From assembly GCA_964629685.1 (NCBI GenBank), contig CAZVTT010000001.1, forward strand, positions 513,319 to 577,318: a stretch of 64,000 nucleotides of DNA. Direction: 5' to 3'. Of this stretch, positions 43,576 to 58,417 are shown in pieces. Within the stretch, counting starts at the first letter, position 1, and each line of letters starts with the position of its first letter. The stretch comes from an uncultured Gammaproteobacteria bacterium. GTDB taxonomy: Bacteria > Patescibacteriota > Microgenomatia > UBA10105 > UBA927. Position numbers and translations under genes: made by a program. The notes under the pieces are model-generated. The model was given only the letters and a program-made list of their open reading frames with translations. It searched no databases and had not been told where the DNA came from.

Positions 43576-45015
43576 TTATCTGACGCGGATAAAAATCGTG
43601 GCAACGTTATCCTCATATATCGTTAACCAACGTCCAAGCCTTTCAAGATCCAATAACCGGTTATATATGGGTAACGTTTGAGGAATAAAAACCGTATTAT
43701 ACGGTGACGCATCAATATCGATACTCTGTGTCATATATGCTGAGTAGCGTGAGTAGGGACTTTCTCCAGTTTCATCTTCCCATAGCGGCATGCGGCCGTC
43801 GATGCTGGGAGGAATGTGTGGATAGTTCCATATAAGCCATCCCCCCCAGTCATAATACGTCAGAATTGGTAGTTCCCACTGGTGAGTACTAAGAAATTGA
43901 GCTGCTTGAGTAGGACATCCTAACGTGGTGCAGTATGTATTCCACGACATGGTTTTAAGTTCAGTAATGCGGTTTATCCCAAGTCCAATAATCGCGAATA
44001 AAATAAAACATTGGAGGAGTAATTTGAACTTATTTGTATTGATTTTTGTACTGGGAATTGATCTAGGTAGAATTTCGGAAAGGATGAGAAAACTGAAACA
44101 GTAAAACATAATACCATACCTACGCTGTAAGATACTTAATCCGAGAAATAGTAGTGCTATAACCATCCATACCCAGTACTGTTTTGTTTTGCGTTTATAT
44201 ACAAGGAAGAGTATTCCGATAATCGTGAAGAAGGCCATACCCATCAGTTGCCACCAATAGAGTGAAAATGTATCCAACGGTACCCATTCGCCAATATTCG
44301 ACATAATAGGATTGCCGATATATTTTCGGAATTCCAGGAAAATGGTATAGCCGAATGGATTAAACACGCATGCGGCAAAAGCGGAAAATACGAGGATGCT
44401 ATACCGAGTGATATGTTTTTTGAACGAATTCGTGTGCAAAAATAATTGACTAATTGTCCATACGGAAAGCACAATAAGTCCGATGATTACCTGGCCATGA
44501 ATATTGGCCCACAGCATGAAAAGCAGCGGGATGATTACGAGTATCTTTTGATTTTTTTCTCCAAGACGTAATACCCGACTGAGTACACCAAGAAAGGCAA
44601 GGCTAATTAATTGTCCGCGGAAAGATACCAACCAGTAAGGTTGTGATACATATACGAAGATTGGATAAATAAGAAATTGTTGCAGTGCGTTAAGCCCTGC
44701 GGCCTTAGAAAATAGAAGTAAAGCAATCAGGCTCAATCCCGCACCACCCAAAGATAAAGCCTGAAATCCTCCAATCCGGTAAAGTGCGTACGAGAGTATG
44801 TCGGTACCTGTGGTTGAATTTATCCAACGGTATGCGGGTAGAGTTGTGGAAAATATGTTAGTACGGAGTACTTGCTGATGTTGCCAAGCATATTCGCCGT
44901 ACTTTAAATGCCAACCAAGATCCAGGTCAGCAGGGTGGGAAATAAAAAGCACGAACGTCAGCAGATAGAGGAGTAGTAACGAAAGGTTTGACTTAGCATT
45001 CGGAAAGTACTTCAT
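43576..45015 (-). CDS. Polytopic GT-C-like membrane protein, paralog A
   Basis: 479 aa, more than 10 TM; conserved DLDLGWHLKYGEY in loop 1 and C-terminal PSIDGRMPLW...SPYNTVFIP shared with the gene at 46056-47522. Confidence 0.45.
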   Translation of the reverse strand: MKYFPNAKSNLSLLLLYLLTFVLFISHPADLDLGWHLKYGEYAWQHQQVLRTNIFSTTLPAYRWINSTTGTDILSYALYRIGGFQALSLGGAGLSLIALLLFSKAAGLNALQQFLIYPIFVYVSQPYWLVSFRGQLISLAFLGVLSRVLRLGEKNQKILVIIPLLFMLWANIHGQVIIGLIVLSVWTISQLFLHTNSFKKHITRYSILVFSAFAACVFNPFGYTIFLEFRKYIGNPIMSNIGEWVPLDTFSLYWWQLMGMAFFTIIGILFLVYKRKTKQYWVWMVIALLFLGLSILQRRYGIMFYCFSFLILSEILPRSIPSTKINTNKFKLLLQCFILFAIIGLGINRITELKTMSWNTYCTTLGCPTQAAQFLSTHQWELPILTYYDWGGWLIWNYPHIPPSIDGRMPLWEDETGESPYSRYSAYMTQSIDIDASPYNTVFIPQTLPIYNRLLDLERLGRWLTIYEDNVATIFIRVR

Positions 45016-46055: not shown

Positions 46056-47522
46056 CTACTTCGTACGTGCAAAAATACTGGCATTGGCATCTTCGTATAT
46101 CAGTTTCCATGTGCCTTCACGTACTAATTCCTGCAGGCGGTTATATATTGGTTTATATGTTGGTGTCAGTACGGTGTTATATGGGGATTTATCCACGTCT
46201 GTTATATTTTGTTCCCATGAATAATATTCCGAAAACGCACTATACCCGTCAGGAGATCGCCAAAGTGACATCCGGCCATCTATGCTGGGTTTTATTGCCG
46301 GATATCGCCAGATCAGCCATCCGCCCCAATTATAGATGGTCAATAGTGGCGCCTGCCAGCGATGTTCTAATAGAAATACTGCCGCCGGTTCGGAACAACC
46401 GATAACTTTGCAGTAAGTTATCCAGTTCATTGTTCCTGCCTGTATAGTATTTGCTGATGAGAATAATCCGAAACCCAGCAATAGAAGACATATAGCAATG
46501 ATAACCCTGTGTTCTATGTGGCTACGTATGAACGTAATATTTTGTGGTACGACTGTTATGAGAAGAGGTAGCGTCATAAAGTAATACATCCAGGCATATC
46601 TGCGTTGTGCCAGAGCAAAACCCAACAGCAGAAATGCAATTATTACCCAGGGTAACTGTGTGAGCATTTTATTTTTGCGTAATACCCGAAATGCAGCGAA
46701 TATAAGAAACAGACTCGAAATTACGAGATACTTCCAGTCTATAGACAGAAATGGGTACGGGGTCCATTCCGCGATGGCATGTATATTCTGATTTCCGATA
46801 TAGAGAAGTGGTTCGAGTATAGTGCCGGCACCATAGGGGTTAACTAAACTGAGGAGCCAGGAGAGTAAGTAGGATAAAAATAGAGTTAACAGTACGGTAT
46901 TCTTGTTCTTCGGATTTTCGGTTAAGACTGTCAGTATCCGGAATACTAGCCAAATTGTGAAAACAGCAAAGCCGATGATTATCTGACCATGAACGTTCGC
47001 CCAAATCCAGAAAATAAGTGGACATATAGTTACTGTTTTATATTTTTGTTCTGCCCGAAGGAGTATCCATGTTAATATTGCCAAAAATCCCAAACTCAGT
47101 AATTGTCCGCGGAACGAAATAACGGTATATGGACGGGTAACGATTATGAGTAAAGGAAAGAGTACGATTCTTTGCAACGCAGACATATGTACTGCTTTTG
47201 CAAAGAAATAATATATAAAGGTGTTTACCAGTGCACCTGCCAGTGCCAGACCGAAAAATCCTCCAGATTGATATACCAAATAAGTAAATAAATCAGTTCC
47301 GGACGTAGCGTTTACCCAATGGTAACCCTCCATCATTGTGGAGAACGTGTTTATCCGGAGCACGTTTAAGTGCTGCGAAATATACTCACCGTATTTCAGA
47401 TGCCATCCCAGATCAAAGTCTATGGGGTGGTATATATGAACGAGAAATATAAACGTGAATAAACAGAGCGCCGCGAGATTCCGGTAGAAAAATTTAAGCA
47501 GTGTTTTTCCGACTCTGTTCAT
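46056..47522 (-). CDS. Polytopic GT-C-like membrane protein, paralog B (start placed at MNRVGKT)
   Basis: Shares DFDLGWHLKYGEY and KPSIDGRMSLW...SPYNTVLTP with paralog A; the track ORF extends 76 codons upstream with no support. Confidence 0.45.
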   Translation of the reverse strand: MNRVGKTLLKFFYRNLAALCLFTFIFLVHIYHPIDFDLGWHLKYGEYISQHLNVLRINTFSTMMEGYHWVNATSGTDLFTYLVYQSGGFFGLALAGALVNTFIYYFFAKAVHMSALQRIVLFPLLIIVTRPYTVISFRGQLLSLGFLAILTWILLRAEQKYKTVTICPLIFWIWANVHGQIIIGFAVFTIWLVFRILTVLTENPKNKNTVLLTLFLSYLLSWLLSLVNPYGAGTILEPLLYIGNQNIHAIAEWTPYPFLSIDWKYLVISSLFLIFAAFRVLRKNKMLTQLPWVIIAFLLLGFALAQRRYAWMYYFMTLPLLITVVPQNITFIRSHIEHRVIIAICLLLLGFGLFSSANTIQAGTMNWITYCKVIGCSEPAAVFLLEHRWQAPLLTIYNWGGWLIWRYPAIKPSIDGRMSLWRSPDGYSAFSEYYSWEQNITDVDKSPYNTVLTPTYKPIYNRLQELVREGTWKLIYEDANASIFARTK

Positions 47523-47582
47523 AAGTTCTGAACGTATAATAATGAAAAAAGCGTTCACTGATACAATACAATAAGAAACACT

Positions 47583-48521
47583 ATGGACAAAGTACCAACT
47601 ACAATAGTAAGCGGGTTTTTGGGAAGCGGAAAAACAACTATCATTTCCGGACTTATAGATGAGTTGCAAAAACGAAATGAGCAGGTGGTTTATATTAAAA
47701 ATGAGATTGGCGACGAAAATGTAGATGCCAAACTCATGGAAGGCAAACACATCGCAACGAAGCAGTTACTAAATGGTTGTATTTGTTGTACGTTGACCGG
47801 TCCGTTTATTTCGGCAATCGAAGAAGTACTTACGTCCTTACGTCCGGACAGAATAGTTATTGAAGCGTCCGGTGTAGCTGATCCGTCGGCCTTGGCCCTT
47901 ATGGTTTCTGCGCAGCCGGGTTTACATAGGGATGGAGTGTTAACCATAATTGATGTCGTACATTTTGAAGGGTATAAGGACTTGAGTTTTGCCGCCAGAG
48001 AACAAGCGAAGTTTACGGATTTAATTATTTTTAACAAAGTCGAACTTGCTGATACCGCACGCAAGGTTGCAGTCGTTGGATATGTACGGGAACTTAACGA
48101 TTTCGCACCAATCGTGGAAGCTCCCCAAGGAAAAATTGCCGCAAGCGTAGTCTTCGGTATTTCCAAAATGGAGCTTGATTCATTACTTTTAAAGAAGCAG
48201 CAACAGGAAGAGCAGGGTGAACCCCGACATCACCATCTAGAGGAGGATATGATCCAGACGGTGAAATTTGAAACGGACCTAATTATGGATCAGGAGAAAC
48301 TTTCGGAAATATTGGAAAATTTTCCGCTAAACGTATTTAGGGTTAAAGGGTATATTCGTACAGCAACAAATTCTTTACTGGTAAATCGGGTCGGAAAGCG
48401 CTTGGATTATTTACCCTATTCCGAATTACTTCATTCTTCCGTTCTTATTTGTATCGGTTTTAATATTTCGGAAAATAAAGATGAGTTATTCGAAAAGTTA
48501 GCCGGTAGTCTTAGTACATGA
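47583..48521 (+). CDS. COG0523 (CobW/ZigA/YeiR-type) G3E metallochaperone GTPase with His-rich segment
   Basis: GFLGSGKTT P-loop, CICCT (CxCC) metal motif, HHHLEED His stretch, CobW_C-like C-terminus. Confidence 0.75.
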   Translation: MDKVPTTIVSGFLGSGKTTIISGLIDELQKRNEQVVYIKNEIGDENVDAKLMEGKHIATKQLLNGCICCTLTGPFISAIEEVLTSLRPDRIVIEASGVADPSALALMVSAQPGLHRDGVLTIIDVVHFEGYKDLSFAAREQAKFTDLIIFNKVELADTARKVAVVGYVRELNDFAPIVEAPQGKIAASVVFGISKMELDSLLLKKQQQEEQGEPRHHHLEEDMIQTVKFETDLIMDQEKLSEILENFPLNVFRVKGYIRTATNSLLVNRVGKRLDYLPYSELLHSSVLICIGFNISENKDELFEKLAGSLST

Positions 48522-48582: not shown

Positions 48583-48756
48583 TTAAGCTACTTTGTCGTA
48601 GTCAGCTTTTGATACAAACTTCGTCAATGGTCGACCATCGGAAGTTACTCCTCGGACGGCATAACGCACTTGACCTCGGTTTTTGTATTCTTTTCGTTCA
48701 GTAACTTCGGCCTCGACGGTTGTGCGGGTTTTGACATCATAAAATTTCATCTTCAT
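48583..48756 (-). CDS. Small basic protein (57 aa), hypothetical; absent from the ORF track
   Basis: Strong SD AAGGAGGTGA 5 nt upstream of the ATG; MKMKFYDVKTRTTVEAEVTERKEYKNRGQVRYAVRGVTSDGRPLTKFVSKADYDKVA; own sigma70-like promoter. Confidence 0.45.
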   Translation of the reverse strand: MKMKFYDVKTRTTVEAEVTERKEYKNRGQVRYAVRGVTSDGRPLTKFVSKADYDKVA

Positions 48757-48938: not shown

Positions 48939-49601
48939 TTAGAAGGTAATAACTTTTTCCACAGGGAGATTATGAAAGGTAATACCCGGGAGGGGTTCAG
49001 AGCAAACAATTGTCATCTCTCGTTTTTTCGAAATTTTAAGTCCGTAGTAATCTGGGTAGGCAGCATATTGACAGTAAACCGAAAACTGTTCACCGTCAGA
49101 AACGCCTATATTTAAAGCCTGTACCGTTTGAGTGTGTTGCCGCAACTGATAAATAGTTTTTTCTAATGCCGTGTAGAGTGGGGCATCTGCAGTATTTTGA
49201 AGAAACAAGGACCGGATTTTTTGTGCACCAATCTGTCCGGAAAGCGGAGTAGAAAATTTTACGCCTTTTAGTAATCCGTTAAATACGAAAGCGTAAGAAT
49301 TGGCGGTGTACGGCTGATTATATTCCAAGTGACCTTTATCTTTCGCAAATGACGCACTTCTGGCATGTACTAAAAACATATTTGTAGCGGGAAAATCGGA
49401 AAACGCCGGTGTATCTTGCCAAACGGGTAACAATGAGGTGTAGGTTTTCCATGAATTATCGGCTCGTGAACAGATACCCCAGCCGTCACCTTGCCAGTCA
49501 CCGTCTAAGGCGCGACTGTTTTTTGCCATTTCCGCAAAACTTTTGAGTATTGTAGCCGGCTGAATAGGCTTGGTTGATTTTACTAACAAGAATCGACACA
49601 T
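48939..49601 (-). CDS. Class II glutamine amidotransferase (Ntn hydrolase, YafJ/EgtC-like) domain protein, last gene of the LysW operon
   Basis: N-terminal Met-Cys (Cys1 nucleophile), ...DGWG..., HARSAS (HxRxAT-type) motif. Confidence 0.6.
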   Translation of the reverse strand: MCRFLLVKSTKPIQPATILKSFAEMAKNSRALDGDWQGDGWGICSRADNSWKTYTSLLPVWQDTPAFSDFPATNMFLVHARSASFAKDKGHLEYNQPYTANSYAFVFNGLLKGVKFSTPLSGQIGAQKIRSLFLQNTADAPLYTALEKTIYQLRQHTQTVQALNIGVSDGEQFSVYCQYAAYPDYYGLKISKKREMTIVCSEPLPGITFHNLPVEKVITF

Positions 49602-49612
49602 AGGTGTATACC

Positions 49613-50770
49613 TTATACCAGTATTCGCTTAAGTGTGGCTACGGCACTATCAATTTCCCGTTTTTGAATTAAAAACGGCGGTAAAAATCTAATGACGGAG
49701 GCCCCGGCGGGAATCGCCAATATTTGTTCCTTCTGCATTTTTTTTAATATTTCATCCCGTTGTGACGTGAGTTCAATTCCTATCATTAATCCGACTCCGC
49801 GGACATCCGATATCAGCGGCGATGAAATCATTTTTAAAGCGTGAATAAAATATGTTCCCATTGTAACTACGTGATCTAATAGTGGTTCGTTAAGTAGTTC
49901 AAGCGTAGCTATGATTCCGGCACAGGCCAGCGGATTCCCTCCGAATGTGGACGTATGGATATGGCGGGGAATTTGTTCACCTATGGGAGTGGTTACTAAT
50001 GTAGCACCGACGGGAATTCCGCCTGCTAATCCTTTTCCTAGACACAGAATATCGGGATTAACATTATGTTGTTGTATTGCCAAAAATGTTCCGGTTCTGC
50101 CGCAGCCTGTTTGTATTTCGTCAATTATTAAAAGAATTCCGTTTTTGGTACAAAGCTCGCGAACGGCTTGCAAGTATTCCGCCGGAGGAGGATAAATTCC
50201 GCCTTCTCCCTGGACCGGTTCTAAAATAACCGCTGCTGTTTCCGGAGATATTGTTTCTGATAAAGACGTAATGTTTCCAAAGGGTATTCGATCAAATTGC
50301 CACAGCAAAGGCGTAAACGGCGCGGAATATTTCTCGCCACTCGTTGCGGAGAGTGCTCCTAAAGTTTTCCCGTGATAGCCGTGTTCGGCAACGATAAAAC
50401 GTTTTTTACCGCTGGCTAATACGGCAAATTTGAGTGCTGCTTCTATGGCTTCAGCGCCTGAATTGGAAAAATACACTTGCTTTAGTCCGGATCCGCAGCG
50501 TTTAATGAGCATTTTAGCTGCATTTGCCCGACTATCGTTTCCAAAGCTGCCGTGGAGGGTTACCAGTCGTGATAACTGCTGAGTAAGCGCCCGCATCAAG
50601 TCAGGATGAGAATGTCCAAGTATGGAAACGCCATAATTGCTCATTAAATCAAGATAACGGGTACCTTCAGTATCATAGAGATACATACCTTCACCCCGGA
50701 TAAAGCTGACGCCCCTGTTTACATAGACCGGTACGGTAAAATGTTGTTGAATAGGTAAAAATTCATCCAT
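49613..50770 (-). CDS. lysJ: Class III aminotransferase, acetylornithine/LysW-aminoadipate-semialdehyde aminotransferase (ArgD/LysJ)
   Basis: 385 aa; PLP fold-type I with the ArgD-family pattern (GHSHP, DEIQTGCGRTG, lysine in LGKGLAGG). Confidence 0.7.
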   Translation of the reverse strand: MDEFLPIQQHFTVPVYVNRGVSFIRGEGMYLYDTEGTRYLDLMSNYGVSILGHSHPDLMRALTQQLSRLVTLHGSFGNDSRANAAKMLIKRCGSGLKQVYFSNSGAEAIEAALKFAVLASGKKRFIVAEHGYHGKTLGALSATSGEKYSAPFTPLLWQFDRIPFGNITSLSETISPETAAVILEPVQGEGGIYPPPAEYLQAVRELCTKNGILLIIDEIQTGCGRTGTFLAIQQHNVNPDILCLGKGLAGGIPVGATLVTTPIGEQIPRHIHTSTFGGNPLACAGIIATLELLNEPLLDHVVTMGTYFIHALKMISSPLISDVRGVGLMIGIELTSQRDEILKKMQKEQILAIPAGASVIRFLPPFLIQKREIDSAVATLKRILV

Positions 50771-50772
50771 AG

Positions 50773-51573
50773 TTAAGAAATTACGGTACCGGCTCCCTTG
50801 AGGGCTTGTTCAATCGGATGCGGTACGCGTCCATCTCCCCAATAAATAGTTTTAACTCCCATCTCTAAGGCTTTTTTTGCACCTAATATTTTCTTTTTCA
50901 TACGTCCCTGAGCAAATGTCAGATAATTATCCAAATCTTCTTTGGGAATATGCGGAATAATGCTGGTAGGATCCGAAACGTCCCGGAGTAGCCCCGGGGC
51001 TTCAAAGAGATAAACAACGGATTCTACGTGCATGTGCCCTGCCATAACTGCTACCGCCCAGTCATTGTCCGTATTTACAATTGCACAGGCTGGCGTAATT
51101 GCGGGAGGTGCAATTACCGGTGTGTAGCCTCCGGAAATAAGTAACTGAATCAGTTCCGTATTTACGTGTTCCACTCTCCCTGTAAGGTTTCCCGTAAGTA
51201 ATTTCGTTTTGGTACCGTCCTGAATTAATACATCCGGTTTATGTTTTGCTTCCCACAATCGTCCGTCAACACCGCAGAGGCCTACAGCATTTACGGTATG
51301 AGCTTGCAGTTTCGCCACGATCGTTTTATTTACAAGTCCGGCGTAGACCATTAAAAATATATCCAATGCCTGTTTATCGGTATATACACTGCTTATTCCT
51401 GAAGGAGAGGTGATTGTTCTGGTGGGGGCCTGTAACTTTACTGCAATTTCATCCCGGATTGCCCCTGCACCATGTACCAGTATCAGGGGTTCTTTCTTTA
51501 CCAGTTCGGCCACATCTTCCGCGATGTAGTCCCAATTAATGTGTATTCCGCCTCCTGCTTTAATTATAATCAT
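50773..51573 (-). CDS. lysZ: Amino-acid kinase family, [LysW]-aminoadipate / acetylglutamate kinase (LysZ/ArgB)
   Basis: 266 aa; IIKAGG N-terminus, VHGAG, AAK fold. Confidence 0.7.
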   Translation of the reverse strand: MIIIKAGGGIHINWDYIAEDVAELVKKEPLILVHGAGAIRDEIAVKLQAPTRTITSPSGISSVYTDKQALDIFLMVYAGLVNKTIVAKLQAHTVNAVGLCGVDGRLWEAKHKPDVLIQDGTKTKLLTGNLTGRVEHVNTELIQLLISGGYTPVIAPPAITPACAIVNTDNDWAVAVMAGHMHVESVVYLFEAPGLLRDVSDPTSIIPHIPKEDLDNYLTFAQGRMKKKILGAKKALEMGVKTIYWGDGRVPHPIEQALKGAGTVIS

Positions 51574-52589
51574 AGATGTATTGCTGCAATCACTGCATCT
51601 GTAAATTCACGTGTTCCCACGGTTCCGTTTAAATCCTGAGTAAGTATTTCTGACTTAATTGTATCTATCAATGCTTTTCTGATGGCGTCTGCAATTTTTT
51701 GTTGTTTAAGATAGTCCAGCAGTAAACACCCTGCCAGAATGGCAGCGGTCGGATTGGCAATATTTAAACCGGTATACTTTGGAGCAGAACCATGAACAGG
51801 TTCAAAGAGCGCAAATTTTTGCCCGATATTCGCCGAAGCCGCGACACCTAGTCCTCCGACTAAACCAGCCGCTTCGTCGGAAAGGATATCTCCGAACATG
51901 TTTGTGGTTACAAGTACATCGAATACTTCAGGTTTACGAACAAGTTGCAGTGCACAGGCATCAACGAGCATATCTTCAAACAGAATATCCGGATACTGTT
52001 CCGCTACTGCTCGGGCTTCTGAAAGGAAGAGACCATCACTTAACCGTAAGACGTTGGCTTTATGTATTGCTGTTACTTTTTTCCTCCCTAATAACCTGGC
52101 AGTCTCAAATGCGTACGTTACGATCCGGCTACTGGCTGTTTTGGTAATTATTCGTTCTGCCGAGTATCCATCGGGAATTTCATGTTCTACACCCGTATAC
52201 AGGTCTTCTGTATTTTCCCGTACCAGGAGGATATCAACGTTTCTCCTGGATTCAGGAATGGGGAGAGACCGGAATGGACGCAGATTTGCAAACAGATCCA
52301 ACTCTTTGCGGATGCGGACAATGGGACTAAAATATCCCGCGATGTTTGGTGGAGAAGTAACGGCACCAAATAATATCGCATCGGCTTTTTTACAGGTATC
52401 AATGGTTGATTCCGGGAGGGGGGATCCGTATTTCTGATAGGCAGCATACCCGGCTTCCGCTTCAATTATATCGTGAGAAAATTTAACTGCCCGGAAAACC
52501 CGCAGCACCTCCCTGATAACTTCCGGACCAATACCGTCTCCACCGATAATACAAAGCAGCGGGATATTGCTAAGTTTTGTTTTGATCAT
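51570..52589 (-). CDS. Isocitrate/isopropylmalate dehydrogenase family, probable homoisocitrate dehydrogenase
   Basis: 339 aa; IGGDGIGPEV N-terminus, NLFGDILSDEAA signature. Confidence 0.7.
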   Translation of the reverse strand: MIKTKLSNIPLLCIIGGDGIGPEVIREVLRVFRAVKFSHDIIEAEAGYAAYQKYGSPLPESTIDTCKKADAILFGAVTSPPNIAGYFSPIVRIRKELDLFANLRPFRSLPIPESRRNVDILLVRENTEDLYTGVEHEIPDGYSAERIITKTASSRIVTYAFETARLLGRKKVTAIHKANVLRLSDGLFLSEARAVAEQYPDILFEDMLVDACALQLVRKPEVFDVLVTTNMFGDILSDEAAGLVGGLGVAASANIGQKFALFEPVHGSAPKYTGLNIANPTAAILAGCLLLDYLKQQKIADAIRKALIDTIKSEILTQDLNGTVGTREFTDAVIAAIHL

Positions 52590-52596
52590 AGTGCGT

Positions 52597-53088
52597 TTAT
52601 GAAAATAATATTCCGATGGAATCTAACCCGTATTTCTGAATATGGGAAATAATACCGCCCTCTTCATGCAGCTTAAGCATAATAGTCGGCATAGAAGCAG
52701 CAATCGTTTTCTTTTTAGTGCTATTTTTAATTTTTTGAACGTCGAATAGGAGCTCAAGTTTATCGTGCGCTGAGATGCCTGAAGTATCAGCAACTACGGC
52801 CAGTAAACCCTGGTTTAAGCAATTGCGGTAAAATATTCTGGCGAACGACGGTGCGATTACCGCAGTGATACCGGAGTAGGCAAGTGCAGTTACTGCCGTT
52901 TCCCGTGAAGAGCCGCACCCAAAGTTTTTTCCTCCAATAACGAAGTCTCCGGGCGTAACATTTTTTGAAAATTCCGGACAATGTTCGATGAATGCAATTT
53001 TGGCTAATTCCTTGGGATCAGTCGTTATATTAAACCTGCCAGGTGTAATCAGATCAGTATTAATGTTATCCCCAAATATCCAATTCAT
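52597..53088 (-). CDS. 3-isopropylmalate/homoaconitate dehydratase small subunit (archaeal-type LeuD, 163 aa)
   Basis: NIDTDLITPGRF, GKNFGCGSSRE motifs; short LeuD-like form typical of HACN small subunits. Confidence 0.75.
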   Translation of the reverse strand: MNWIFGDNINTDLITPGRFNITTDPKELAKIAFIEHCPEFSKNVTPGDFVIGGKNFGCGSSRETAVTALAYSGITAVIAPSFARIFYRNCLNQGLLAVVADTSGISAHDKLELLFDVQKIKNSTKKKTIAASMPTIMLKLHEEGGIISHIQKYGLDSIGILFS

Positions 53089-53092
53089 AGTA

Positions 53093-54352
53093 TTAATTCA
53101 GAAAATGCCGCGGGTCAGTAATATATCCGTTTATAGCTGTTGCCGCTGCCGTAGCAGGGCTGGCAAGGTAGATGAATGCTTTGGCACTCCCCATCCTGCC
53201 GGTAAAGTTTCTGTTTGAGGTGGAAACACACACTTCGTTATCGAACAGAACTCCGCCATGTCTGCCCAGGCATGGTCCGCATCCCGGCGTCGTCAGAATG
53301 GCGCCGATTTTTGTAAAGAATTCTACGTATCCTTTTTTCAGAGCTTGCATGTAGACGAGTTTTGAAGCCGGTGTGATGATTACCCGGGTATCTCCTGCTA
53401 ACTTCTGCCCTTGCCACATAGCATATACCACGTCTAAATCTTCTATCCGACAATTCGTACATGATCCGATAAATACCTGATCCACATGAATCCGGCGTTT
53501 TTCTACAGCTCTTACTGTGGTGACCTTGTCGATATCGGGTGGTTCCGCAATAAGTGGTTCCAGTGAGTCAACGGTATATGACAATACATCCGCATAGGCG
53601 GCATTTTTGTCACTGGAGAGTTCTTGTGCGTCAAATGCGAAAGGTCGGTTATTTTGGTTCAGATAGTGTCTTGTTTGATCGTCAGGTGCCACAATTGCCG
53701 CTTTTGCTCCCATTTCCGCGGACATATTGGTTAACGTTAATCTTGCCGGAACCGAAAAAGAATTTACGGTATCGCCGCCATATTCCAATACGCGATAGTT
53801 TCCGCCTTCCGGTCCTAATTTTTGTGCTACCATCAACACAACATCTTTCGAAAATACTCCCGGAGCTAACGTTCCGTTAATATTTATCCTGATTGTTGCC
53901 GGAACTTTAAACCAGGCTTTACCGCTAGCCATGGCAATGGCCGCGTCCGTAGAACCGACACCAATGGTGAGTGCACCTAATCCTCCCCCTGTAGGGGTAT
54001 GAGAGTCTGCTCCTAAAACTAAAAATCCTGGATTAATGTACCGTTCACTTAAAAGCTGATGACACACGCCGTCAACGGTAATGGGAATTCCTTGTTCTTT
54101 TGCAAATGCCCGAATTTTTGCCTGTAAACCAGCCATTTGTACGTTCGGTGCCGGAAATGCATGATCGAACGGAATGAATATTTTATCTTTATTCCAGACT
54201 TTTTTGGCAATTTGATAAAAAGGTTCAATAGCCCAAGCGCAAGTCGTGTCATGAGCCATTACCAAATCGAGGTCTGCCACGACAAAGTCACCGGCGTAAA
54301 CTTTCTTACCGGTATGTTTGGAGAATATTTTTTCGGCGATGGTTTGCTTCAT
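53093..54352 (-). CDS. 3-isopropylmalate/homoaconitate dehydratase large subunit (LeuC-like aconitase family)
   Basis: 419 aa; aconitase Fe-S cysteines (CHQ..., GSCTN, GCGPC). Confidence 0.8.
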   Translation of the reverse strand: MKQTIAEKIFSKHTGKKVYAGDFVVADLDLVMAHDTTCAWAIEPFYQIAKKVWNKDKIFIPFDHAFPAPNVQMAGLQAKIRAFAKEQGIPITVDGVCHQLLSERYINPGFLVLGADSHTPTGGGLGALTIGVGSTDAAIAMASGKAWFKVPATIRININGTLAPGVFSKDVVLMVAQKLGPEGGNYRVLEYGGDTVNSFSVPARLTLTNMSAEMGAKAAIVAPDDQTRHYLNQNNRPFAFDAQELSSDKNAAYADVLSYTVDSLEPLIAEPPDIDKVTTVRAVEKRRIHVDQVFIGSCTNCRIEDLDVVYAMWQGQKLAGDTRVIITPASKLVYMQALKKGYVEFFTKIGAILTTPGCGPCLGRHGGVLFDNEVCVSTSNRNFTGRMGSAKAFIYLASPATAAATAINGYITDPRHFLN

Positions 54353-54353
54353 A

Positions 54354-55592
54354 TTACGGTAGGTGTTCTAAACGTTGTTCTAAAAATTGTGGTTGGGAAA
54401 CTATAGGAGGTATATTATGACGCGACACCACTTCCGATAGCAGTGCGTCGGGTGTATAGAGTCTGTTAATCTTTTCGGTTTGACTTTTAAATTCCTGTGC
54501 GATTACTTTAGCCTGCCCAGGGTCTACATCATAATATTTTACTTCCCGCAGGTAGTAATAAATGAGATTCCAACCGGATAGTGGACCGAGTAACAATTCA
54601 TGCTTGGTAATGCCAAAATTAGACAGATCATGTGCTTCATATACACTGGTATCATTTAAAACTGCTTTTTGGTGTACGCCGGCAGTATGAGTTCTGTTTG
54701 TAAGTGATACCGGTTCCATGGCCGGAACATGTAAGTTCAGAATAGAACCCATTAATACGTTTATGGGGTAACAGAGTAACAGATTGAACGTTTTGCAATA
54801 ATCAGGATCCTCGTGGAACAAGTTAAAGAGTAATCCGGTAAGTGAAGTAATTCCTGATCGTTCGGCGAGTCCCCAAATAGAGGTATCTATATACGATGCT
54901 CCGGATAATACTGCCGTTACAGAATTTATGAGTGCGTAACCACGGTCGTTATGGAAATGACATTCAATGTCATGATTCGGATATCGTGTTGCGAGTGCGG
55001 TAACCCGTTCAGTTACCTGTCTTGGTGTAGCCGTTCCAACGGTATCCGGCATTCCGAATGTCTGTACGTAGTCCTGCGCCATGTCATAGACGCGAAACAC
55101 ATGGTCAATTGGTGTACGGAAAAAATCTTCTACGGAGAATCTTATATAGAGTTTGGGATTATTTTCCCGGATTTTTTTTAAGAGCTGTTGGGTTTTGGCC
55201 AAAACTTCAGTAAAAGAAAGGCCATGACTATTCTGTTGGGCCCGTTTATGAATTCCAATGTATATGTTTAAACCGTCAAAACCTGCTGCTAATGCCTGTT
55301 CTATATCCCGCTCATCACATCGGACGTGTGCGAGTAACGTTACATGATCGCGCTGGATAGTACGGATATATTGCTTTAGCGCTAAAAAATCTTTTCCTTC
55401 CGCTTTGCCCACGATGGGGGAGAATAACTCGAGGTGCCGAACGCCAAGTTGGATAAGTCCGTTTACCAATGATTTTTTATCTTCAAGCGTAAAACGGTAT
55501 TTTTGGGAATCGAAAAGTAACGGTGATTGTTGACCATCCCGAAGTGTAGTATCTATAACTCCTTTAAATCTAGTAGTAAATTTCTGTGGCAT
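54354..55592 (-). CDS. Homocitrate synthase / 2-isopropylmalate synthase family (short form lacking the LeuA regulatory domain)
   Basis: 412 aa; DTTLRDGQQ TIM-barrel N-terminus, HxH metal motif (HFHND). Confidence 0.7.
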   Translation of the reverse strand: MPQKFTTRFKGVIDTTLRDGQQSPLLFDSQKYRFTLEDKKSLVNGLIQLGVRHLELFSPIVGKAEGKDFLALKQYIRTIQRDHVTLLAHVRCDERDIEQALAAGFDGLNIYIGIHKRAQQNSHGLSFTEVLAKTQQLLKKIRENNPKLYIRFSVEDFFRTPIDHVFRVYDMAQDYVQTFGMPDTVGTATPRQVTERVTALATRYPNHDIECHFHNDRGYALINSVTAVLSGASYIDTSIWGLAERSGITSLTGLLFNLFHEDPDYCKTFNLLLCYPINVLMGSILNLHVPAMEPVSLTNRTHTAGVHQKAVLNDTSVYEAHDLSNFGITKHELLLGPLSGWNLIYYYLREVKYYDVDPGQAKVIAQEFKSQTEKINRLYTPDALLSEVVSRHNIPPIVSQPQFLEQRLEHLP

Positions 55593-55593
55593 A

Positions 55594-56631
55594 TTATACC
55601 GGGTGTAGTCCCGGAAATGTGAGTCCTGTTTGTTCCGGAAAGCCGCACATTAAATTCATTGCTTGTACTGCCTGACCGGCTGTGCCTTTTACTAAATTAT
55701 CTATGGCCGCAATAATGACTAAACGTTGCATTTTTGAATCAAGTTCAAAACCTATATCACAAAAATTAGTACCAGCCAGAATTTTTGGTTCCGGATAGCG
55801 GTAGATACCCTGTTGTTCTTTGACTATTCTGATAAACGGTTCTTTTCCGTAATATTCGCGGTATGCTTTCCAAATATCTTTTTCCGTAACACCGGATTTG
55901 GGAACTGCATGAATGGTGACCAGTAGTCCGCGTACCATGTCCAAAGCAGTAGCTGAAATACCTACGGCAAAATTATCCGGTAACTGTAATTCCTGACGAA
56001 TTTCAGCCGTATGTCTGTGACCGGTTGGCATATATGAGCGTACTGAACCGGATCGTTCGGGATGATGAGATGCAAGCGAAAAATGCATTCCACCTTGTGA
56101 ACTGCTCATTTTAGCGTCAATAATTACCGAATTCTCCAGTAAGTTGTGCTGTATTAAGGGATATAACGATAAGATTGATACCGTAGCTTCACACCCCCCA
56201 CAGGAAACGTATTTAGCGTTTTTTATTTGTTCCCGATGCAGTTCGGCTATACCGTAGACAAATTTGGGAAGAAGGTCCGGTGCTGTATGTGGTTCGTGAT
56301 ACCACGAAGTAAAAATATCAGCATTATGTAAACGAAAATCTGCCCCTAAATCTATAATCATTCCGGCTTTTTTTTGCAGTTCCGGCATAATATGCATAGA
56401 TTGTCCGTTGGGGAGCGCCACAAAGAGCATATCGCATGGTGCCAATTTATCGGGATGAATAAAATTAAGCTGGGTGATTTTTCGCAGGTTCGGATGAACA
56501 CTCGATAGCGGTTTGCCGGCGAACTGTCTGGATGTAACTTCTGCAATGGTAACTTCGGGGTGTTGGATAAGTAAGCGGATTATTTCCCCGCCTGCGTAAC
56601 CGGAACCCCCAAGTATGGAAACGGTTTTCAT
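55594..56631 (-). CDS. lysY: N-acetyl-gamma-glutamyl-phosphate / [LysW]-aminoadipyl-phosphate reductase (ArgC/LysY)
   Basis: MKTVSILGGSGYAGGE NAD(P)-binding N-terminus; catalytic Cys in SCGGCEAT. Confidence 0.8.
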   Translation of the reverse strand: MKTVSILGGSGYAGGEIIRLLIQHPEVTIAEVTSRQFAGKPLSSVHPNLRKITQLNFIHPDKLAPCDMLFVALPNGQSMHIMPELQKKAGMIIDLGADFRLHNADIFTSWYHEPHTAPDLLPKFVYGIAELHREQIKNAKYVSCGGCEATVSILSLYPLIQHNLLENSVIIDAKMSSSQGGMHFSLASHHPERSGSVRSYMPTGHRHTAEIRQELQLPDNFAVGISATALDMVRGLLVTIHAVPKSGVTEKDIWKAYREYYGKEPFIRIVKEQQGIYRYPEPKILAGTNFCDIGFELDSKMQRLVIIAAIDNLVKGTAGQAVQAMNLMCGFPEQTGLTFPGLHPV

Positions 56632-56640
56632 ATAAATTTT

Positions 56641-57483
56641 TTATTTGGCCTGAGTAATACAGTAATCTACAATCGCACCTGAAATGCTGACTCCGGTAGG
56701 GGCTTCCGAATTTTTAAATTCCATGGTGTGATTTATTTCATTAATACTTAATCCCTTATCCGTTTCAAATACATCCATTGCCAAAATACCGCCGCCCACG
56801 GCTCGGGATGCTTTGCTGCAAATTTCGGAAAGCTCTTTCGTTACGGGACAATTACTGGCTACACCACCTCGGGCTGTATTGGTAATCCAATGTTCCGAAT
56901 CCCGGTATATGGCACAAATTGTTTTTCCGTTAATGACAAATGCACGGATATCTCTACCGGGTTTGCGGATATAAGCCTGCAGGTAATAGGCTTTCTGTTG
57001 TGGAGATCCGAGCGTGTCTTTGTGTTCTATTAGCGCTTCAAGGGCTTCCCGATCGTTTACTTTGGCGAGCATTCTACCCCATGATCCCAGAGCTGGTTTT
57101 AACACAATGGGAAATCCTCCCATGCGTTCTATTGCTGTAATGGCTTCTTCCAGGGTGAATACCATGGCAAAATCAGGCGTCAGGACGTTATGTTTGCGCA
57201 ATACAAGTGAGGTTACGAATTTGTCTTCACAGACGGTGGCCACAGATGAAGGGTTAATGACCGGAATCCCGAGAGATTCAAAATATCTGATGGCATAATC
57301 ACCTTTAACCGTAGATACTGACCGTTCAAGTGCAACATGAATTCCCGTAACCGGATAACTAGGGTCAAAAATCATAGTGCGGATATCCATTAACTTCACG
57401 GATACTCCGCGCTGTTTTGCCGCGTCGAGAATTAATTTTTCATCCCCACGGATAGTGGAATGGAGAAGACCGATGGTCGTCAT
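56641..57483 (-). CDS. lysX: RimK-family ATP-grasp ligase, alpha-aminoadipate/glutamate--LysW ligase (LysX/ArgX)
   Basis: ATP-grasp pattern (PIVLKPALGSWGR...); start placed at MTTIGLL just after the lysW stop (track ORF starts 4 codons earlier). Confidence 0.7.
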   Translation of the reverse strand: MTTIGLLHSTIRGDEKLILDAAKQRGVSVKLMDIRTMIFDPSYPVTGIHVALERSVSTVKGDYAIRYFESLGIPVINPSSVATVCEDKFVTSLVLRKHNVLTPDFAMVFTLEEAITAIERMGGFPIVLKPALGSWGRMLAKVNDREALEALIEHKDTLGSPQQKAYYLQAYIRKPGRDIRAFVINGKTICAIYRDSEHWITNTARGGVASNCPVTKELSEICSKASRAVGGGILAMDVFETDKGLSINEINHTMEFKNSEAPTGVSISGAIVDYCITQAK

Positions 57484-57487
57484 ATTG

Positions 57488-57661
57488 TTATTCACCCCAA
57501 TCTTCTTCTATAGCCGGTGCCTGTGAAAGGACAGCGGATCCGCCGGTGATACCGGATATTACCAAGCGTGTTTGACATTCAGCACAGCTGATAATTTCCG
57601 ATACTTCAACATTGGCAGCTAATGCCACTTCCCCGTCACAGATAGGACAATTACTTTTCAT
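57488..57661 (-). CDS. lysW: Amino-group carrier protein LysW (57 aa); absent from the ORF track
   Basis: MKSNCPICDGEV...SCAECQTRL... zinc-ribbon CxxC...CxxC and C-terminal EDWGE motif diagnostic of LysW/ArgW; lies directly upstream of lysX. Confidence 0.7.
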   Translation of the reverse strand: MKSNCPICDGEVALAANVEVSEIISCAECQTRLVISGITGGSAVLSQAPAIEEDWGE

Positions 57662-57669
57662 ATGCAGGG

Positions 57670-57742
57670 ATTATTTCCGATAGACACCAGGAAGTCAAAA
57701 AAAACTAATTAATTGACAAAAAATAAATAAAAGTGTTAAAAT
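57670..57742. promoter_or_regulatory. Back-to-back divergent sigma70-like promoters predicting leaderless transcripts
   Basis: Minus strand: TTGACT (57693-57698), 17-nt spacer, AATAAT (57670-57675), ATG 9 nt later. Plus strand: TTGACA (57713-57718), 18-nt spacer, TGtTAAAAT (57734-57742), ATG at 57749. No SD before either ATG. Confidence 0.35.
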
Positions 57743-57748
57743 ATTAAC

Positions 57749-58417
57749 ATGAAGTCAATCACACAGGCTACTGAAGACATTATTCATGAGTCACCGTTTT
57801 TAGAAGAAGTGATTCGTGAAGATATTGCGAATTTGTCGGGAATTGCCCGGAAAATTCACACTGAAGTGGAAAATCGTACCATGAAAGATGTTACGGTGGC
57901 TTCGGTAATTATGGCTTTAAAGCGTTTAACCGTCCGTGACGGAGTGCATAGTCATAGATTAATGAAGGCGTTTTCTGCTTCTCCTGAGTTGATTGTCCGG
58001 TCTAATCTATTTGAGATAACCGTGGAAAATTCGCCGACACTGATAGAAAAACAGCAAAAACTGCTTGGTAAAGCCAGTAAGGGGCATAGCAATTTTGCCA
58101 CTATTACGCACGGTGTATTTGAAACGACAATTATTGGTAATAGATCCGTGCGGGAGTACGTGTTGAACTTGTATGAAACTGAAAGAATTATCTCAAGAAT
58201 AGATAAGCTCTCGTCAATTACCATTAAATTCCCCAGTGATATTGTGGAACAGCCCGGCGTATATTACACCGTTTTAAAAACATTAGCCTGGGCAGGTCTT
58301 AGTATCGCGGAAGTGGTATCTACCTATTCGGAGTTAACAATTGTGTTGCCCGAGGAAGACGTTGAGCGTGCATTTACGTTAATTAAACAGCTATTTTCAG
58401 GAAAATCAGGTAAGTAG
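57749..58417 (+). CDS. Tandem ACT-like regulatory domain protein (hypothetical)
   Basis: 222 aa; C-terminal segment ...PGVYYTVLKTLAWAGLSIAEVVSTYSELTIVLPEEDVERAFTLIKQLF has a classic ACT beta-alpha-beta-beta-alpha-beta pattern; an N-terminal half repeats it. Confidence 0.35.
   Translation: MKSITQATEDIIHESPFLEEVIREDIANLSGIARKIHTEVENRTMKDVTVASVIMALKRLTVRDGVHSHRLMKAFSASPELIVRSNLFEITVENSPTLIEKQQKLLGKASKGHSNFATITHGVFETTIIGNRSVREYVLNLYETERIISRIDKLSSITIKFPSDIVEQPGVYYTVLKTLAWAGLSIAEVVSTYSELTIVLPEEDVERAFTLIKQLFSGKSGK

What the first reader, a model, noticed from the sequence alone, without database searches (positions are those of the whole stretch)
48939..49601. Cys1 Ntn-hydrolase (class II amidotransferase, EgtC/YafJ-like) in the operon slot normally held by the LysK deacylase
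Canonical LysW operons end with LysK, an M20 metallohydrolase that releases lysine from LysW-gamma-lysine. No M20 gene is present here. Instead a 220-aa protein follows lysJ with an 11-nt gap. It begins MCRFLL (Cys immediately after Met) and carries DGWG and HARSAS motifs of the YafJ/EgtC class II amidotransferase family. EgtC is known to hydrolyse a gamma-glutamyl amide bond. That is the same bond type that links LysW Glu to the product amine. This looks like a non-orthologous replacement of the final release step.
Basis: inference. Interest (0 to 1): 0.6.

Follow-up and report, generated by a model that had tools for sequence, protein, structure and literature searches.

The report
Cysteine amidase replacing LysK in lysine operons
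A small cysteine-nucleophile amidase sits where the metal-dependent enzyme LysK normally sits in carrier-protein (LysW) lysine operons, and in about a third of environmental operons it probably releases the finished lysine from the carrier.

Summary
Window 48939-49601 (-) encodes a 220-aa protein (here called X) that starts MCRFLL, carries DGWG and HARSAS, and lies 11 nt after lysJ. It is the last gene of a lysW-lysX-lysY-hcs-hacA-hacB-hicdh-lysZ-lysJ operon. No M20 peptidase gene is in the 64-kb window.

The AlphaFold model (pLDDT 94.6) is an Ntn / class II amidotransferase fold. EgtC is the nearest solved structure (TM 0.80, 17% identity). X misses the EgtC and Pfam GATase_4 cut-offs, so it belongs to a distinct family.

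- In 74 of 80 genomes carrying the family, the gene directly follows lysJ (median gap 4 nt).
- In a sample of metagenomic LysW operons, 22 carried a true LysK, 13 carried X, 3 carried neither, and none carried both within the operon.
- The nucleophile Cys, oxyanion Asn-Gly and carboxylate-binding Arg are conserved. The Asp that binds glutamine's free alpha-amino group is always Gly. That fits a peptide-bound C-terminal glutamate.
- LysW ends in Gln instead of Glu in 19 of 75 X-type operons and in 0 of 22 LysK-type operons.

Best reading (about 0.7): X is a LysW gamma-amide hydrolase that replaces LysK. There is no biochemistry, and whole-genome absence of LysK was not shown. I found no publication describing this.

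The parts
48939..49601 (-). X: stand-alone 220-aa Cys1 Ntn hydrolase (class II amidotransferase fold). Predicted [LysW] C-terminal gamma-glutamyl-amide hydrolase, a functional analogue of LysK.
   Evidence: ORF and motifs. AF2 pLDDT 94.6. Foldseek top hit EgtC, TM 0.80. Family conservation of C2, R81, N108-G109, G125 and K128. Operon linkage.
49613..50770 (-). lysJ, [LysW]-aminoadipate semialdehyde transaminase. Ends 11 nt before X.
   Evidence: Pfam Aminotran_3 E 1.8e-105. NCBIfam argD/LysJ models.
50773..51573 (-). lysZ, [LysW]-aminoadipate kinase
   Evidence: NF010659, 294 bits against a cut-off of 223.
51570..52589 (-). homoisocitrate (isocitrate/isopropylmalate-type) dehydrogenase
   Evidence: Pfam Iso_dh E 1.7e-103.
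52597..53088 (-). homoaconitase small subunit (hacB)
   Evidence: Pfam Aconitase_C.
53093..54352 (-). homoaconitase large subunit (hacA)
   Evidence: Pfam Aconitase E 3.5e-96.
54354..55592 (-). homocitrate synthase
   Evidence: Best NCBIfam model is TIGR02146 homocitrate synthase, E 1.5e-58, below its cut-off.
55594..56631 (-). lysY, [LysW]-aminoadipyl-phosphate reductase (ArgC family)
   Evidence: TIGR01850, 388 bits against a cut-off of 234.
56641..57495 (-). lysX, ATP-grasp ligase that loads aminoadipate onto LysW
   Evidence: TIGR02144 LysX, 303 bits against a cut-off of 276.
57488..57661 (-). lysW, 57-aa amino-group carrier protein ending EEDWGE. Its C-terminal Glu gamma-carboxyl is the predicted attachment point and the site where X acts.
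   Evidence: NF041070 and TIGR01206 hits. Aligns end to end with LysW of T. kodakarensis, T. thermophilus and S. tokodaii in PDB. pI 4.05.
57670..57698 (-). sigma-70-like promoter match just upstream of lysW (consensus match only)
   Evidence: TTGACT-17-AATAAT, 10 of 12. Not more frequent than in shuffles.
57749..58417 (+). Divergent 222-aa gene with a weak C-terminal ACT domain. Candidate lysine-sensing regulator that travels with X-type operons.
   Evidence: ACT_7 E 7.8e-4 and aspartokinase ACT region. Matched in most of the 80 genome loci; in the metagenome sample it lies divergently upstream of lysW in 5 of 12 X-type and 0 of 13 LysK-type operons.

Best explanation
X is the release enzyme of a variant LysW (amino-group carrier protein) lysine pathway. 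It is a stand-alone N-terminal-nucleophile cysteine amidohydrolase that does the job of the M20 metallohydrolase LysK.

Proposed mechanism:
1. Methionine aminopeptidase removes Met1 and exposes Cys as residue 1 (inferred).
2. The basic enzyme (pI about 9) docks on acidic LysW (pI about 4) (inferred).
3. The free alpha-carboxylate of LysW's C-terminal Glu57 is held by Arg81. The peptide chain that occupies the Glu alpha-nitrogen is accommodated because the usual alpha-amino-binding Asp is a Gly (Gly125) (inferred from alignment).
4. The Cys thiol attacks the gamma-carbonyl that carries lysine's alpha-amino group. The oxyanion is stabilised by Asn108/Gly109.
5. Free L-lysine leaves, in the position where ammonia leaves in a glutaminase. 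A LysW gamma-thioester remains and is hydrolysed, which regenerates LysW-Glu for LysX (inferred by analogy with GlmS, PurF and EgtC chemistry).

Shown here: the fold, the conserved residues, the operon linkage, the exclusion with LysK, and the Gln-ended LysW. Not shown: any catalytic activity.
For: 1. Fold. The AF2 model has pLDDT 94.6. The best PDB matches are EgtC 4ZFJ/4ZFL (TM 0.80), then SPO2029, GlmS, PA1307 and PurF. Sequence profiles agree.

2. Active site, counted over 292 family members (positions with a residue):
- Cys2 in 251/253
- Arg81 in 277/278
- Asn108 in 274/277
- Gly109 in 273/277

3. Position 125 is Gly in 270/275 members and never Asp. It aligns with the Asp of G-[ES]-T-D-S-E in YafJ and SPO2029. 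That Asp aligns with GlmS Asp123, which by established knowledge binds the alpha-amino group of glutamine.

4. Linkage. In 74 of 80 genome loci lysJ is directly upstream, with a median gap of 4 nt and 14 overlaps. The loci are labelled Microgenomates lineages, Dojkabacteria, Aminicenantes/Acidobacteriota, Fischerbacteria, Dehalococcoidia and others. A second subfamily is embedded as lysW-X-Y-GAT-Z-J.

5. Exclusion with LysK. Of 39 classifiable metagenomic LysW operons, 22 have M20, 13 have X, 3 have neither, and 1 is nominally both (Fisher p about 9e-7). That one M20 is a signal-peptide peptidase behind opposite-strand genes. Three sampled operon M20s pass the curated [LysW]-lysine hydrolase cut-off: 393-521 bits against 363.

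6. M20 scans. There is no M20 in the window. In the 80 loci (each up to 10 kb either side) the only M20 is the one in L022.

7. LysW terminus. LysW ends EDWGQ in 19 of 75 X-type operons and in 0 of 22 LysK-type operons (p 0.005, not corrected for phylogeny). A Gln terminus needs a gamma-deamidase before LysX can use it.

8. Charge. X has pI 8.95 and the family median is 8.9. LysW has pI 4.05. All studied carrier-protein enzymes use basic patches to bind the carrier (PMC11726168).
Against: - There are no biochemical or genetic data.
- The source genome outside the 64-kb window could not be scanned, so an unlinked LysK is not excluded. Three of 39 operons have neither gene nearby, which shows that LysK can be unlinked.
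- L022 (Roizmanbacteria) has a generic ArgE/DapE-type M20 immediately upstream of lysW as well as X.
- Intact X homologues occur without lys genes within 10 kb in two Entotheonella chromosomes (L080, L081).
- The Asp-to-Gly equivalence rests on profile alignments at 13-22% identity. Model coordinates could not be inspected.
- The statistics treat related operons as independent.
- The metagenome sample required an Ala-Pro motif upstream of EDWG[EQ], so it under-samples archaeal LysW.
Confidence: 0.7

Rival explanations
1. X only matures or services the carrier. It deamidates Gln-ended pro-LysW or clears mis-loaded LysW such as LysW-gamma-Glu. Lysine release is still done by an unlinked M20 elsewhere in the genome.
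For: Some LysW in X-type operons end in Gln. LysK can be unlinked from the operon, as in the 3 'neither' operons. L022 has an M20 next to the operon.
Against: About three quarters of X-type operons have a Glu-ended LysW, where a maturation deamidase has nothing to do, yet X is kept. X and in-operon LysK exclude each other. A Microgenomates M20 clade search that reached down to 32% identity listed no protein on the 953,690-bp source contig or on the other large X-bearing contigs.
Confidence: 0.12
2. X is a true glutaminase or amidotransferase subunit. It hydrolyses free glutamine to feed ammonia or glutamate to another enzyme of the pathway or to a synthase encoded elsewhere.
For: It has the class II amidotransferase fold with an intact Cys, oxyanion hole and Arg. 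Some databases name homologues 'glutamine amidotransferase'.
Against: The Asp that binds the free alpha-amino group of glutamine is never present. X is a stand-alone 220-aa protein with no synthase domain, and no synthase gene is conserved next to it. No step of the LysW pathway uses ammonia; LysJ is a PLP transaminase (established knowledge).
Confidence: 0.05
3. X is an EgtC/YafJ-like gamma-glutamyl amidase for an unrelated small molecule, and it merely hitch-hikes with the lys operon.
For: EgtC is the closest solved structure. Entotheonella copies lie away from lys genes.
Against: Linkage holds in 74 of 80 genomes over many phylum-level lineages and in two different gene orders, often with overlapping stop and start codons. 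No egt genes are in the window. The EgtC model scores 34 bits against a cut-off of 218.
Confidence: 0.04

Closest known systems
EgtC (ergothioneine gamma-glutamyl amidohydrolase, PDB 4ZFJ/4ZFK/4ZFL; TIGR03442)
   Same: Stand-alone protein of about 220-230 aa with a Cys1 Ntn class II amidotransferase fold, and the best structural match (TM 0.80). It shares the DGWG motif and the R-S-A core of the HARSAS motif. By established knowledge it hydrolyses a gamma-glutamyl amide whose leaving group is the alpha-amine of an amino-acid derivative, which is the same bond type as proposed for X.
   Different: Only 17% identity. The EgtC model scores 34 bits against a cut-off of 218. There is no egt gene context. 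EgtC's substrate has a free glutamyl alpha-amino group, whereas X lacks the corresponding Asp and is predicted to act on a protein's C-terminal Glu.
LysK ([LysW]-lysine hydrolase, M20 ArgE/DapE family; NF003367)
   Same: Same operon and same predicted reaction, the release of lysine from LysW-gamma-lysine. LysK and X are mutually exclusive in LysW operons.
   Different: Unrelated fold and chemistry. LysK is a metallopeptidase, whereas X would use a cysteine N-terminal nucleophile with an acyl-enzyme intermediate. There is no sequence or structural similarity.
YafJ / PA1307 (1TE5) / SPO2029 (3MDN): stand-alone class II amidotransferase-like proteins of unknown function (Pfam GATase_4)
   Same: Same fold and size. 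hhalign to YafJ gives 86% probability over the full length. They share the DGWG, H-x-R, N-G and terminal S-E motifs.
   Different: These proteins keep G-E/S-T-D-S-E, where the X family has G-x-I-G-A-[QE]-K. The window protein is below the GATase_4 gathering score. None of them is linked to lysW.
Glutaminase domains of GlmS and PurF (class II amidotransferases)
   Same: Cys1 nucleophile, Asn-Gly oxyanion hole and Arg for the substrate alpha-carboxylate (residue roles from established knowledge).
   Different: They are fused to a synthase with an ammonia channel and bind free glutamine through Asp123 (GlmS numbering). X is free-standing and has Gly at that position.

Membership tests
Class II (Ntn, PurF-type) glutamine amidotransferase superfamily | Cys directly after the initiator Met (N-terminal nucleophile) | tested here: met
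   MCRFLL in the window. Cys2 in 251 of 253 family members with a residue at that position.
Class II (Ntn, PurF-type) glutamine amidotransferase superfamily | Four-layer alpha-beta-beta-alpha Ntn fold | tested here: met
   AF2 pLDDT 94.6, pTM 0.91. Foldseek hits EgtC, SPO2029, GlmS and PurF at probability 1.00.
Class II (Ntn, PurF-type) glutamine amidotransferase superfamily | Asn-Gly oxyanion hole and Arg that binds the substrate alpha-carboxylate | tested here: met
   N108-G109 and R81 align with the N-G and H-x-R of YafJ and GlmS and are near-invariant.
Class II (Ntn, PurF-type) glutamine amidotransferase superfamily | Asp that binds the free alpha-amino group of glutamine (GlmS Asp123) | tested here: not met
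   The aligned position is Gly125. It is Gly in 270 of 275 members and never Asp.
Class II (Ntn, PurF-type) glutamine amidotransferase superfamily | Acceptor/synthase domain or partner that receives ammonia | tested here: not met
   Stand-alone 220-aa protein. Its neighbours are lys genes only, and no synthase is conserved beside it.
Pfam GATase_4 (PF13230; YafJ-like) | Score at or above Pfam's gathering threshold | tested here: not met
   13.1 bits against a cut-off of 23, E 0.047. Some homologues do carry a precomputed PF13230 hit.
EgtC (TIGR03442 equivalog) | Score at or above the curated equivalog cut-off | tested here: not met
   34.2 bits against a cut-off of 218.65.
EgtC (TIGR03442 equivalog) | Ergothioneine gene context (egtA/B/D) | tested here: not met
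   The Pfam hits of the 47 scanned window ORFs all fit other functions, and none suggested an ergothioneine (egt) gene. The neighbours are lys genes.
LysK ([LysW]-lysine hydrolase, NF003367, M20) | M20 metallopeptidase fold and sequence | tested here: not met
   No M20 similarity. X is a functional analogue at most.
LysK ([LysW]-lysine hydrolase, NF003367, M20) | Genomic linkage to lysW-lysX-lysY-lysZ-lysJ | tested here: met
   74 of 80 genome loci. 13 of 39 metagenomic operons, excluding LysK.
LysK ([LysW]-lysine hydrolase, NF003367, M20) | Hydrolysis of LysW-gamma-lysine to LysW and L-lysine | not testable with these tools
   Needs an enzyme assay.
LysW / amino-group carrier protein lysine pathway (the operon as a whole) | Carrier with C-terminal EDWGE, plus LysX, LysZ, LysY and LysJ | tested here: met
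   LysW ends EEDWGE and aligns with PDB LysW. LysX, LysZ and LysY pass their curated cut-offs; LysJ is just below argD and LysJ model cut-offs.

The most novel reading that the evidence does not exclude
X is a dual-purpose LysW gamma-amidase, a glutaminase-type enzyme whose substrate is a protein's C-terminal residue. It both activates Gln-ended 'pro-LysW' (...EDWGQ to ...EDWGE) and releases lysine at the end of every cycle. The acyl-enzyme (LysW thioester on Cys1) might even be captured by aminoadipate, which would reload the carrier without ATP. Gln-ended LysW would then be a marker of this pathway variant, which accounts for roughly a third of environmental LysW operons, including those of Microgenomates (candidate phyla radiation bacteria) and of MAGs labelled marine Gammaproteobacteria.
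Probability: 0.35. Interest if true: 0.75.

Novelty: new variant of a known kind. Interest (0 to 1): 0.68.

Why it matters
- The LysW carrier-protein route to lysine has so far been described with a single release enzyme, the M20 hydrolase LysK. The 2024-2025 papers from the group that discovered the pathway still say so (PMC12998189, PMC11726168). I found no paper linking LysW to a class II amidotransferase.
- If X is the release enzyme, pathway reconstructions that look for LysK wrongly score lysine biosynthesis as incomplete. The affected groups are many Microgenomates (candidate phyla radiation bacteria), Aminicenantes/Acidobacteriota, Dehalococcoidia and marine Gammaproteobacteria-labelled MAGs. 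In candidate phyla radiation bacteria this bears on the debate about how dependent they are on hosts.
- It would be a clear case of non-orthologous displacement by an enzyme with different chemistry.
- It would be the first class II amidotransferase-type Ntn hydrolase acting on a carrier protein.
- It would explain Gln-ended LysW genes.
- It is directly testable with recombinant proteins.

Tried and rejected
- **Source genome.** I could not reach it beyond the window. The exact-protein look-up returned only short Logan contigs, not the 953,690-bp NCBI contig. The cluster look-up gave no accession. The published Microgenomates complete genome (PMC7143001) is 801,504 bp and is a different organism.
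- **Indirect check for an M20 in the source genome.** I searched the protein database with the Roizmanbacteria M20 from L022. The list reached 32% identity, and no hit lay on a 953,690-bp contig or on the other large X-bearing contigs. This is weak evidence only. That M20 clade normally sits between greA and an aminoacyl-tRNA synthetase gene (class I lysyl-tRNA synthetase in L087), not in lys operons.
- **Structure library.** The AlphaFold-database fold library was not available.
- **DNA pattern.** The accepted pattern needs Ala-Pro upstream, which biases the sample towards bacterial-type LysW.
- **Other window deacylases as alternative release enzymes.** The Hist_deacetyl gene (38400-39362) and the PIG-L gene (61846-62706) are not conserved near lys operons elsewhere.
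- **The divergent ACT-domain gene as the missing hydrolase.** I rejected this. It has no catalytic signature, and in the metagenome sample it lies upstream of lysW in only 5 of 12 X-type operons.
- **A gene fusion of X and LysZ.** P0381, a 477-aa gene call, looks like a frameshift artefact.
- **Literature.** The EgtC structure paper is not in the library. The supplement of the Caldithrix abyssi paper does not list the lys locus genes.

Full report
**1. The observation**

Window 48939-49601 on the minus strand is an ATG-started ORF of 220 codons. The protein, called X here, begins MCRFLLVKS. It contains DGDWQGDGWG (residues 33-42), HARSAS (79-84), FNG (107-109) and GQIGAQKI (122-129).

X starts 11 nt after the stop codon of lysJ (49613-50770) and is the last gene of a co-directional block:
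- lysW 57488-57661
- lysX 56641-57495
- lysY 55594-56631
- homocitrate synthase 54354-55592
- hacA 53093-54352
- hacB 52597-53088
- homoisocitrate dehydrogenase 51570-52589
- lysZ 50773-51573
- lysJ 49613-50770
- X 48939-49601

LysX, LysZ and LysY pass NCBI's curated cut-offs. LysW ends EEDWGE and aligns end to end with the three LysW proteins in the PDB.

No M20 peptidase is in the window. Pfam scans of 47 ORFs found none. An M20 HMM built from E. coli ArgE plus 24 metagenomic M20 proteins found nothing in any six-frame ORF. Three of those metagenomic proteins were tested and pass the curated [LysW]-lysine hydrolase model.

**2. What the protein is**

Pfam gives only a sub-threshold GATase_4 match (E 0.047). 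NCBIfam's EgtC model matches at E 1.6e-8 but far below its cut-off (34 against 218 bits).

An AlphaFold model built on 28 homologues is confident (pLDDT 94.6, pTM 0.91). Its best solved neighbours are, in order:
- EgtC (TM 0.80, 17% identity)
- SPO2029
- GlmS
- PA1307
- PurF

Profile searches agree: 3MDN at E 1e-5 and EgtC at 6e-3, and YafJ at 86% probability over the full length. X is therefore a stand-alone Ntn hydrolase of the class II amidotransferase fold. It is not an orthologue of EgtC or YafJ.

The family is of moderate size. It has 559 clusters at 90% identity for the window-type subfamily and more than 3,000 for a second subfamily. Among cluster representatives at 50% identity, 134 score E<=1e-30.

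**3. Active site**

Across 292 members, counting positions with a residue:

| Position | Conservation |
|---|---|
| Cys2 | 251/253 |
| Arg81 | 277/278 |
| Asn108 | 274/277 |
| Gly109 | 273/277 |
| Lys/Arg128 | 271/272 |

By alignment with YafJ and GlmS, these correspond to the nucleophile, the Arg that binds the substrate's alpha-carboxylate, and the Asn-Gly oxyanion hole of class II amidotransferases. The residue roles come from established knowledge of GlmS and PurF.

One canonical residue is missing. The Asp of the G-x-T-D-S-E motif is GlmS Asp123, which binds glutamine's free alpha-amino group. It aligns with Gly125 of X. That position is Gly in 270 of 275 members and never Asp.

The pocket therefore looks built for a gamma-glutamyl amide that has a free alpha-carboxylate but no free alpha-amino group. 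That describes the C-terminal Glu of LysW carrying an amine on its gamma-carboxyl. This step is an inference from alignments at low identity. I could not inspect the model coordinates.

X is basic (pI 8.95; family median 8.9) and LysW is acidic (pI 4.05). This matches the electrostatic docking reported for all studied carrier-protein enzymes (PMC11726168).

**4. Genomic linkage**

A scan of one genome per GTDB species gave 80 loci. In 74 of them lysJ lies directly upstream of X on the same strand, with a median gap of 4 nt and 14 overlaps.

The records are labelled:
- Roizman-, Davies-, Levy-, Gottesman-, Shapiro- and Pacebacteria
- Dojkabacteria
- Aminicenantes/Acidobacteriota and Thermoanaerobaculaceae
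- Fischerbacteria
- Dehalococcoidia
- two archaeal bins that may be mis-binned

Exceptions:
- three short or contig-edge loci
- two Entotheonella chromosomes where X has no lys genes within 10 kb (L080, L081)
- one Patescibacteria locus (L075) where the X-like ORF has lost the Cys

Only one M20 gene occurs in all these flanks. It is in L022, just upstream of lysW. It is a generic ArgE/DapE-type protein that scores 72 bits against the LysK model's cut-off of 363.

**5. Survey of LysW operons**

I scanned metagenome contigs for DNA encoding Ala-Pro-x3-[ED]-D-W-G-[EQ]-stop and obtained 120 LysW loci. Thirty-nine had enough context to classify:

| Operon type | Number |
|---|---|
| M20 gene in the operon (usually W-X-Y-Z-J-M20) | 22 |
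| X gene in the operon | 13 |
| Neither | 3 |
| Both, nominally | 1 |

In the 'both' locus (L176) the M20 has a signal peptide. It lies about 2 kb away behind opposite-strand genes, so it is not part of the operon. Exclusion between the two genes gives Fisher p about 9e-7.

Twelve of the X genes, including the one in L176, belong to a second subfamily placed between lysY and lysZ. It shares MCR, HGWG, HARSA, FNG and G-R-I-G-A-E-K-I, so the Gly replacing Asp is kept. Its closest database relatives are marine MAGs labelled Gammaproteobacteria.

A rough LysY tree puts X-type operons in two coherent groups nested among LysK-type operons. X therefore travels with the operon.

**6. An unexpected supporting observation**

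LysW ends in Gln (...EDWGQ) in 16 of 61 X-type genome loci and in 3 of 14 X-type metagenomic operons. It does so in none of the 22 LysK-type operons. Combined, that is 19 of 75 against 0 of 22, p = 0.005, not corrected for relatedness. The three characterised LysW proteins end in Glu.

A Gln terminus cannot be activated by LysX until its gamma-amide is hydrolysed. That hydrolysis is the glutaminase reaction on a peptide-bound residue, which is what the X pocket looks suited to. This ties X to the C-terminal residue of LysW independently of gene order.

**7. Mechanism proposed**

1. Met1 is removed.
2. Cys1 attacks the gamma-carbonyl of LysW-Glu57(gamma-N-alpha-lysine).
3. Lysine leaves, as ammonia does in a glutaminase.
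4. The LysW thioester is hydrolysed, which regenerates the carrier.

Shown here: the fold, the conserved residues, the linkage, the exclusion with LysK, and the Gln-ended carriers. Inferred: substrate, docking and chemistry.

Rival explanations:
- a carrier-maturation or proofreading role with an unlinked LysK (about 0.12)
- a true glutaminase (about 0.05)
- an unrelated EgtC-like function (about 0.04)

**8. Limits**

- No assay was done.
- A database search with the Microgenomates M20 clade listed no protein on the 953,690-bp source contig or on other large X-bearing contigs. That search is word-indexed and lists only 120 hits.
- The metagenome sample is biased towards LysW with an Ala-Pro motif.

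**9. Novelty**

Full-text searches found no paper connecting LysW with a class II amidotransferase or Ntn hydrolase. Recent work still treats LysK as the hydrolase of the pathway (PMC12998189). The Caldithrix abyssi genome paper notes a lysWXZYJ-hcs locus of eight genes and possible non-orthologous displacement in lysine synthesis (PMC5317091). That organism may be a cultured carrier, but I could not check it.

I rate this a new variant of a known kind. The pathway is known and the fold is known. The predicted pairing is new and appears common in the environment.

Noticed in passing
window 57749-58417 (+): A 222-aa gene divergent from lysW with only a weak ACT-domain match (ACT_7 E 7.8e-4; aspartokinase regulatory region). 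Homologues were matched in most of the 80 X-type genome loci; in the metagenome sample it lies divergently upstream of lysW in 5 of 12 X-type and 0 of 13 LysK-type operons. It may be a lysine-sensing regulator.
   Followed up: partly
L020, L022, L024, L031, L047, L050, L051, L053, L057, L065, L066, L069, L070, L072, L073, L082; L097, L105, L119, L141, L146, L161, L163, L164 (lysW 3' ends): LysW genes whose last codon is Gln instead of Glu (...EDWGQ). Where context is available they occur only in operons that carry X.
   Followed up: yes
L075 9998-10657; L087 10001-11140; L089 10001-11122: In one Patescibacteria genome an X-like ORF without the Cys nucleophile (it starts M-I-V-I-L) lies between greA and a lysyl-tRNA synthetase gene. 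Roizmanbacteria carry an ArgE/DapE-like M20 in the same slot, between greA and an aminoacyl-tRNA synthetase gene (class I lysyl-tRNA synthetase in L087). Two unrelated hydrolases therefore occupy the same slot beside a tRNA synthetase gene.
   Followed up: partly
window 48583-48756 (-): A 57-aa basic ORF 182 nt downstream of X with no Pfam or NCBIfam match. It has its own promoter-like site at 48818-48789, so it is probably not part of the lys operon.
   Followed up: partly
window 35712-38396 (-) and 38400-39362 (-): A Pat-like protein acetyltransferase (NDP-forming acyl-CoA synthetase domains plus GNAT) lies next to a histone-deacetylase-family gene. This looks like a protein lysine acetylation/deacetylation pair in a roughly 1-Mb genome.
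   Followed up: no
window 43576-45015 (-) and 46056-47750 (-): Two paralogous polytopic membrane proteins share an N-terminal D-x-DLGWHLKYGEY motif and have no Pfam match. They flank an rsmB-type methyltransferase gene.
   Followed up: no
window 58571-60778 (+): A 735-aa ORF with no Pfam match, a long low-complexity acidic middle and a hydrophobic, Cys-rich C-terminus.
   Followed up: no
window 49613-57661 (-): The operon has no LysN-type 2-aminoadipate transaminase, so the step from 2-oxoadipate to aminoadipate is unassigned within the window.
   Followed up: no
L176 5885-7936 (-): lysZ and lysJ are read as one 683-aa ORF in a high-GC metagenomic X-type operon. It is either a true fusion or an assembly artefact.
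   Followed up: no
L104-L206 (subfamily B loci); proteins P0397-P0516: The lysY-GAT-lysZ subfamily has more than 3,000 database clusters. Its named relatives are marine 'Gammaproteobacteria bacterium' MAGs, a group not known for the LysW pathway.
   Followed up: partly
window 57488-57661 (-), cluster of LysW: The 90%-identity cluster that holds this 57-aa LysW is represented by a 403-aa ENA protein, and it also contains 302-aa and 403-aa members. This suggests LysW fused to, or mis-called with, a neighbouring gene in some assemblies.
   Followed up: no
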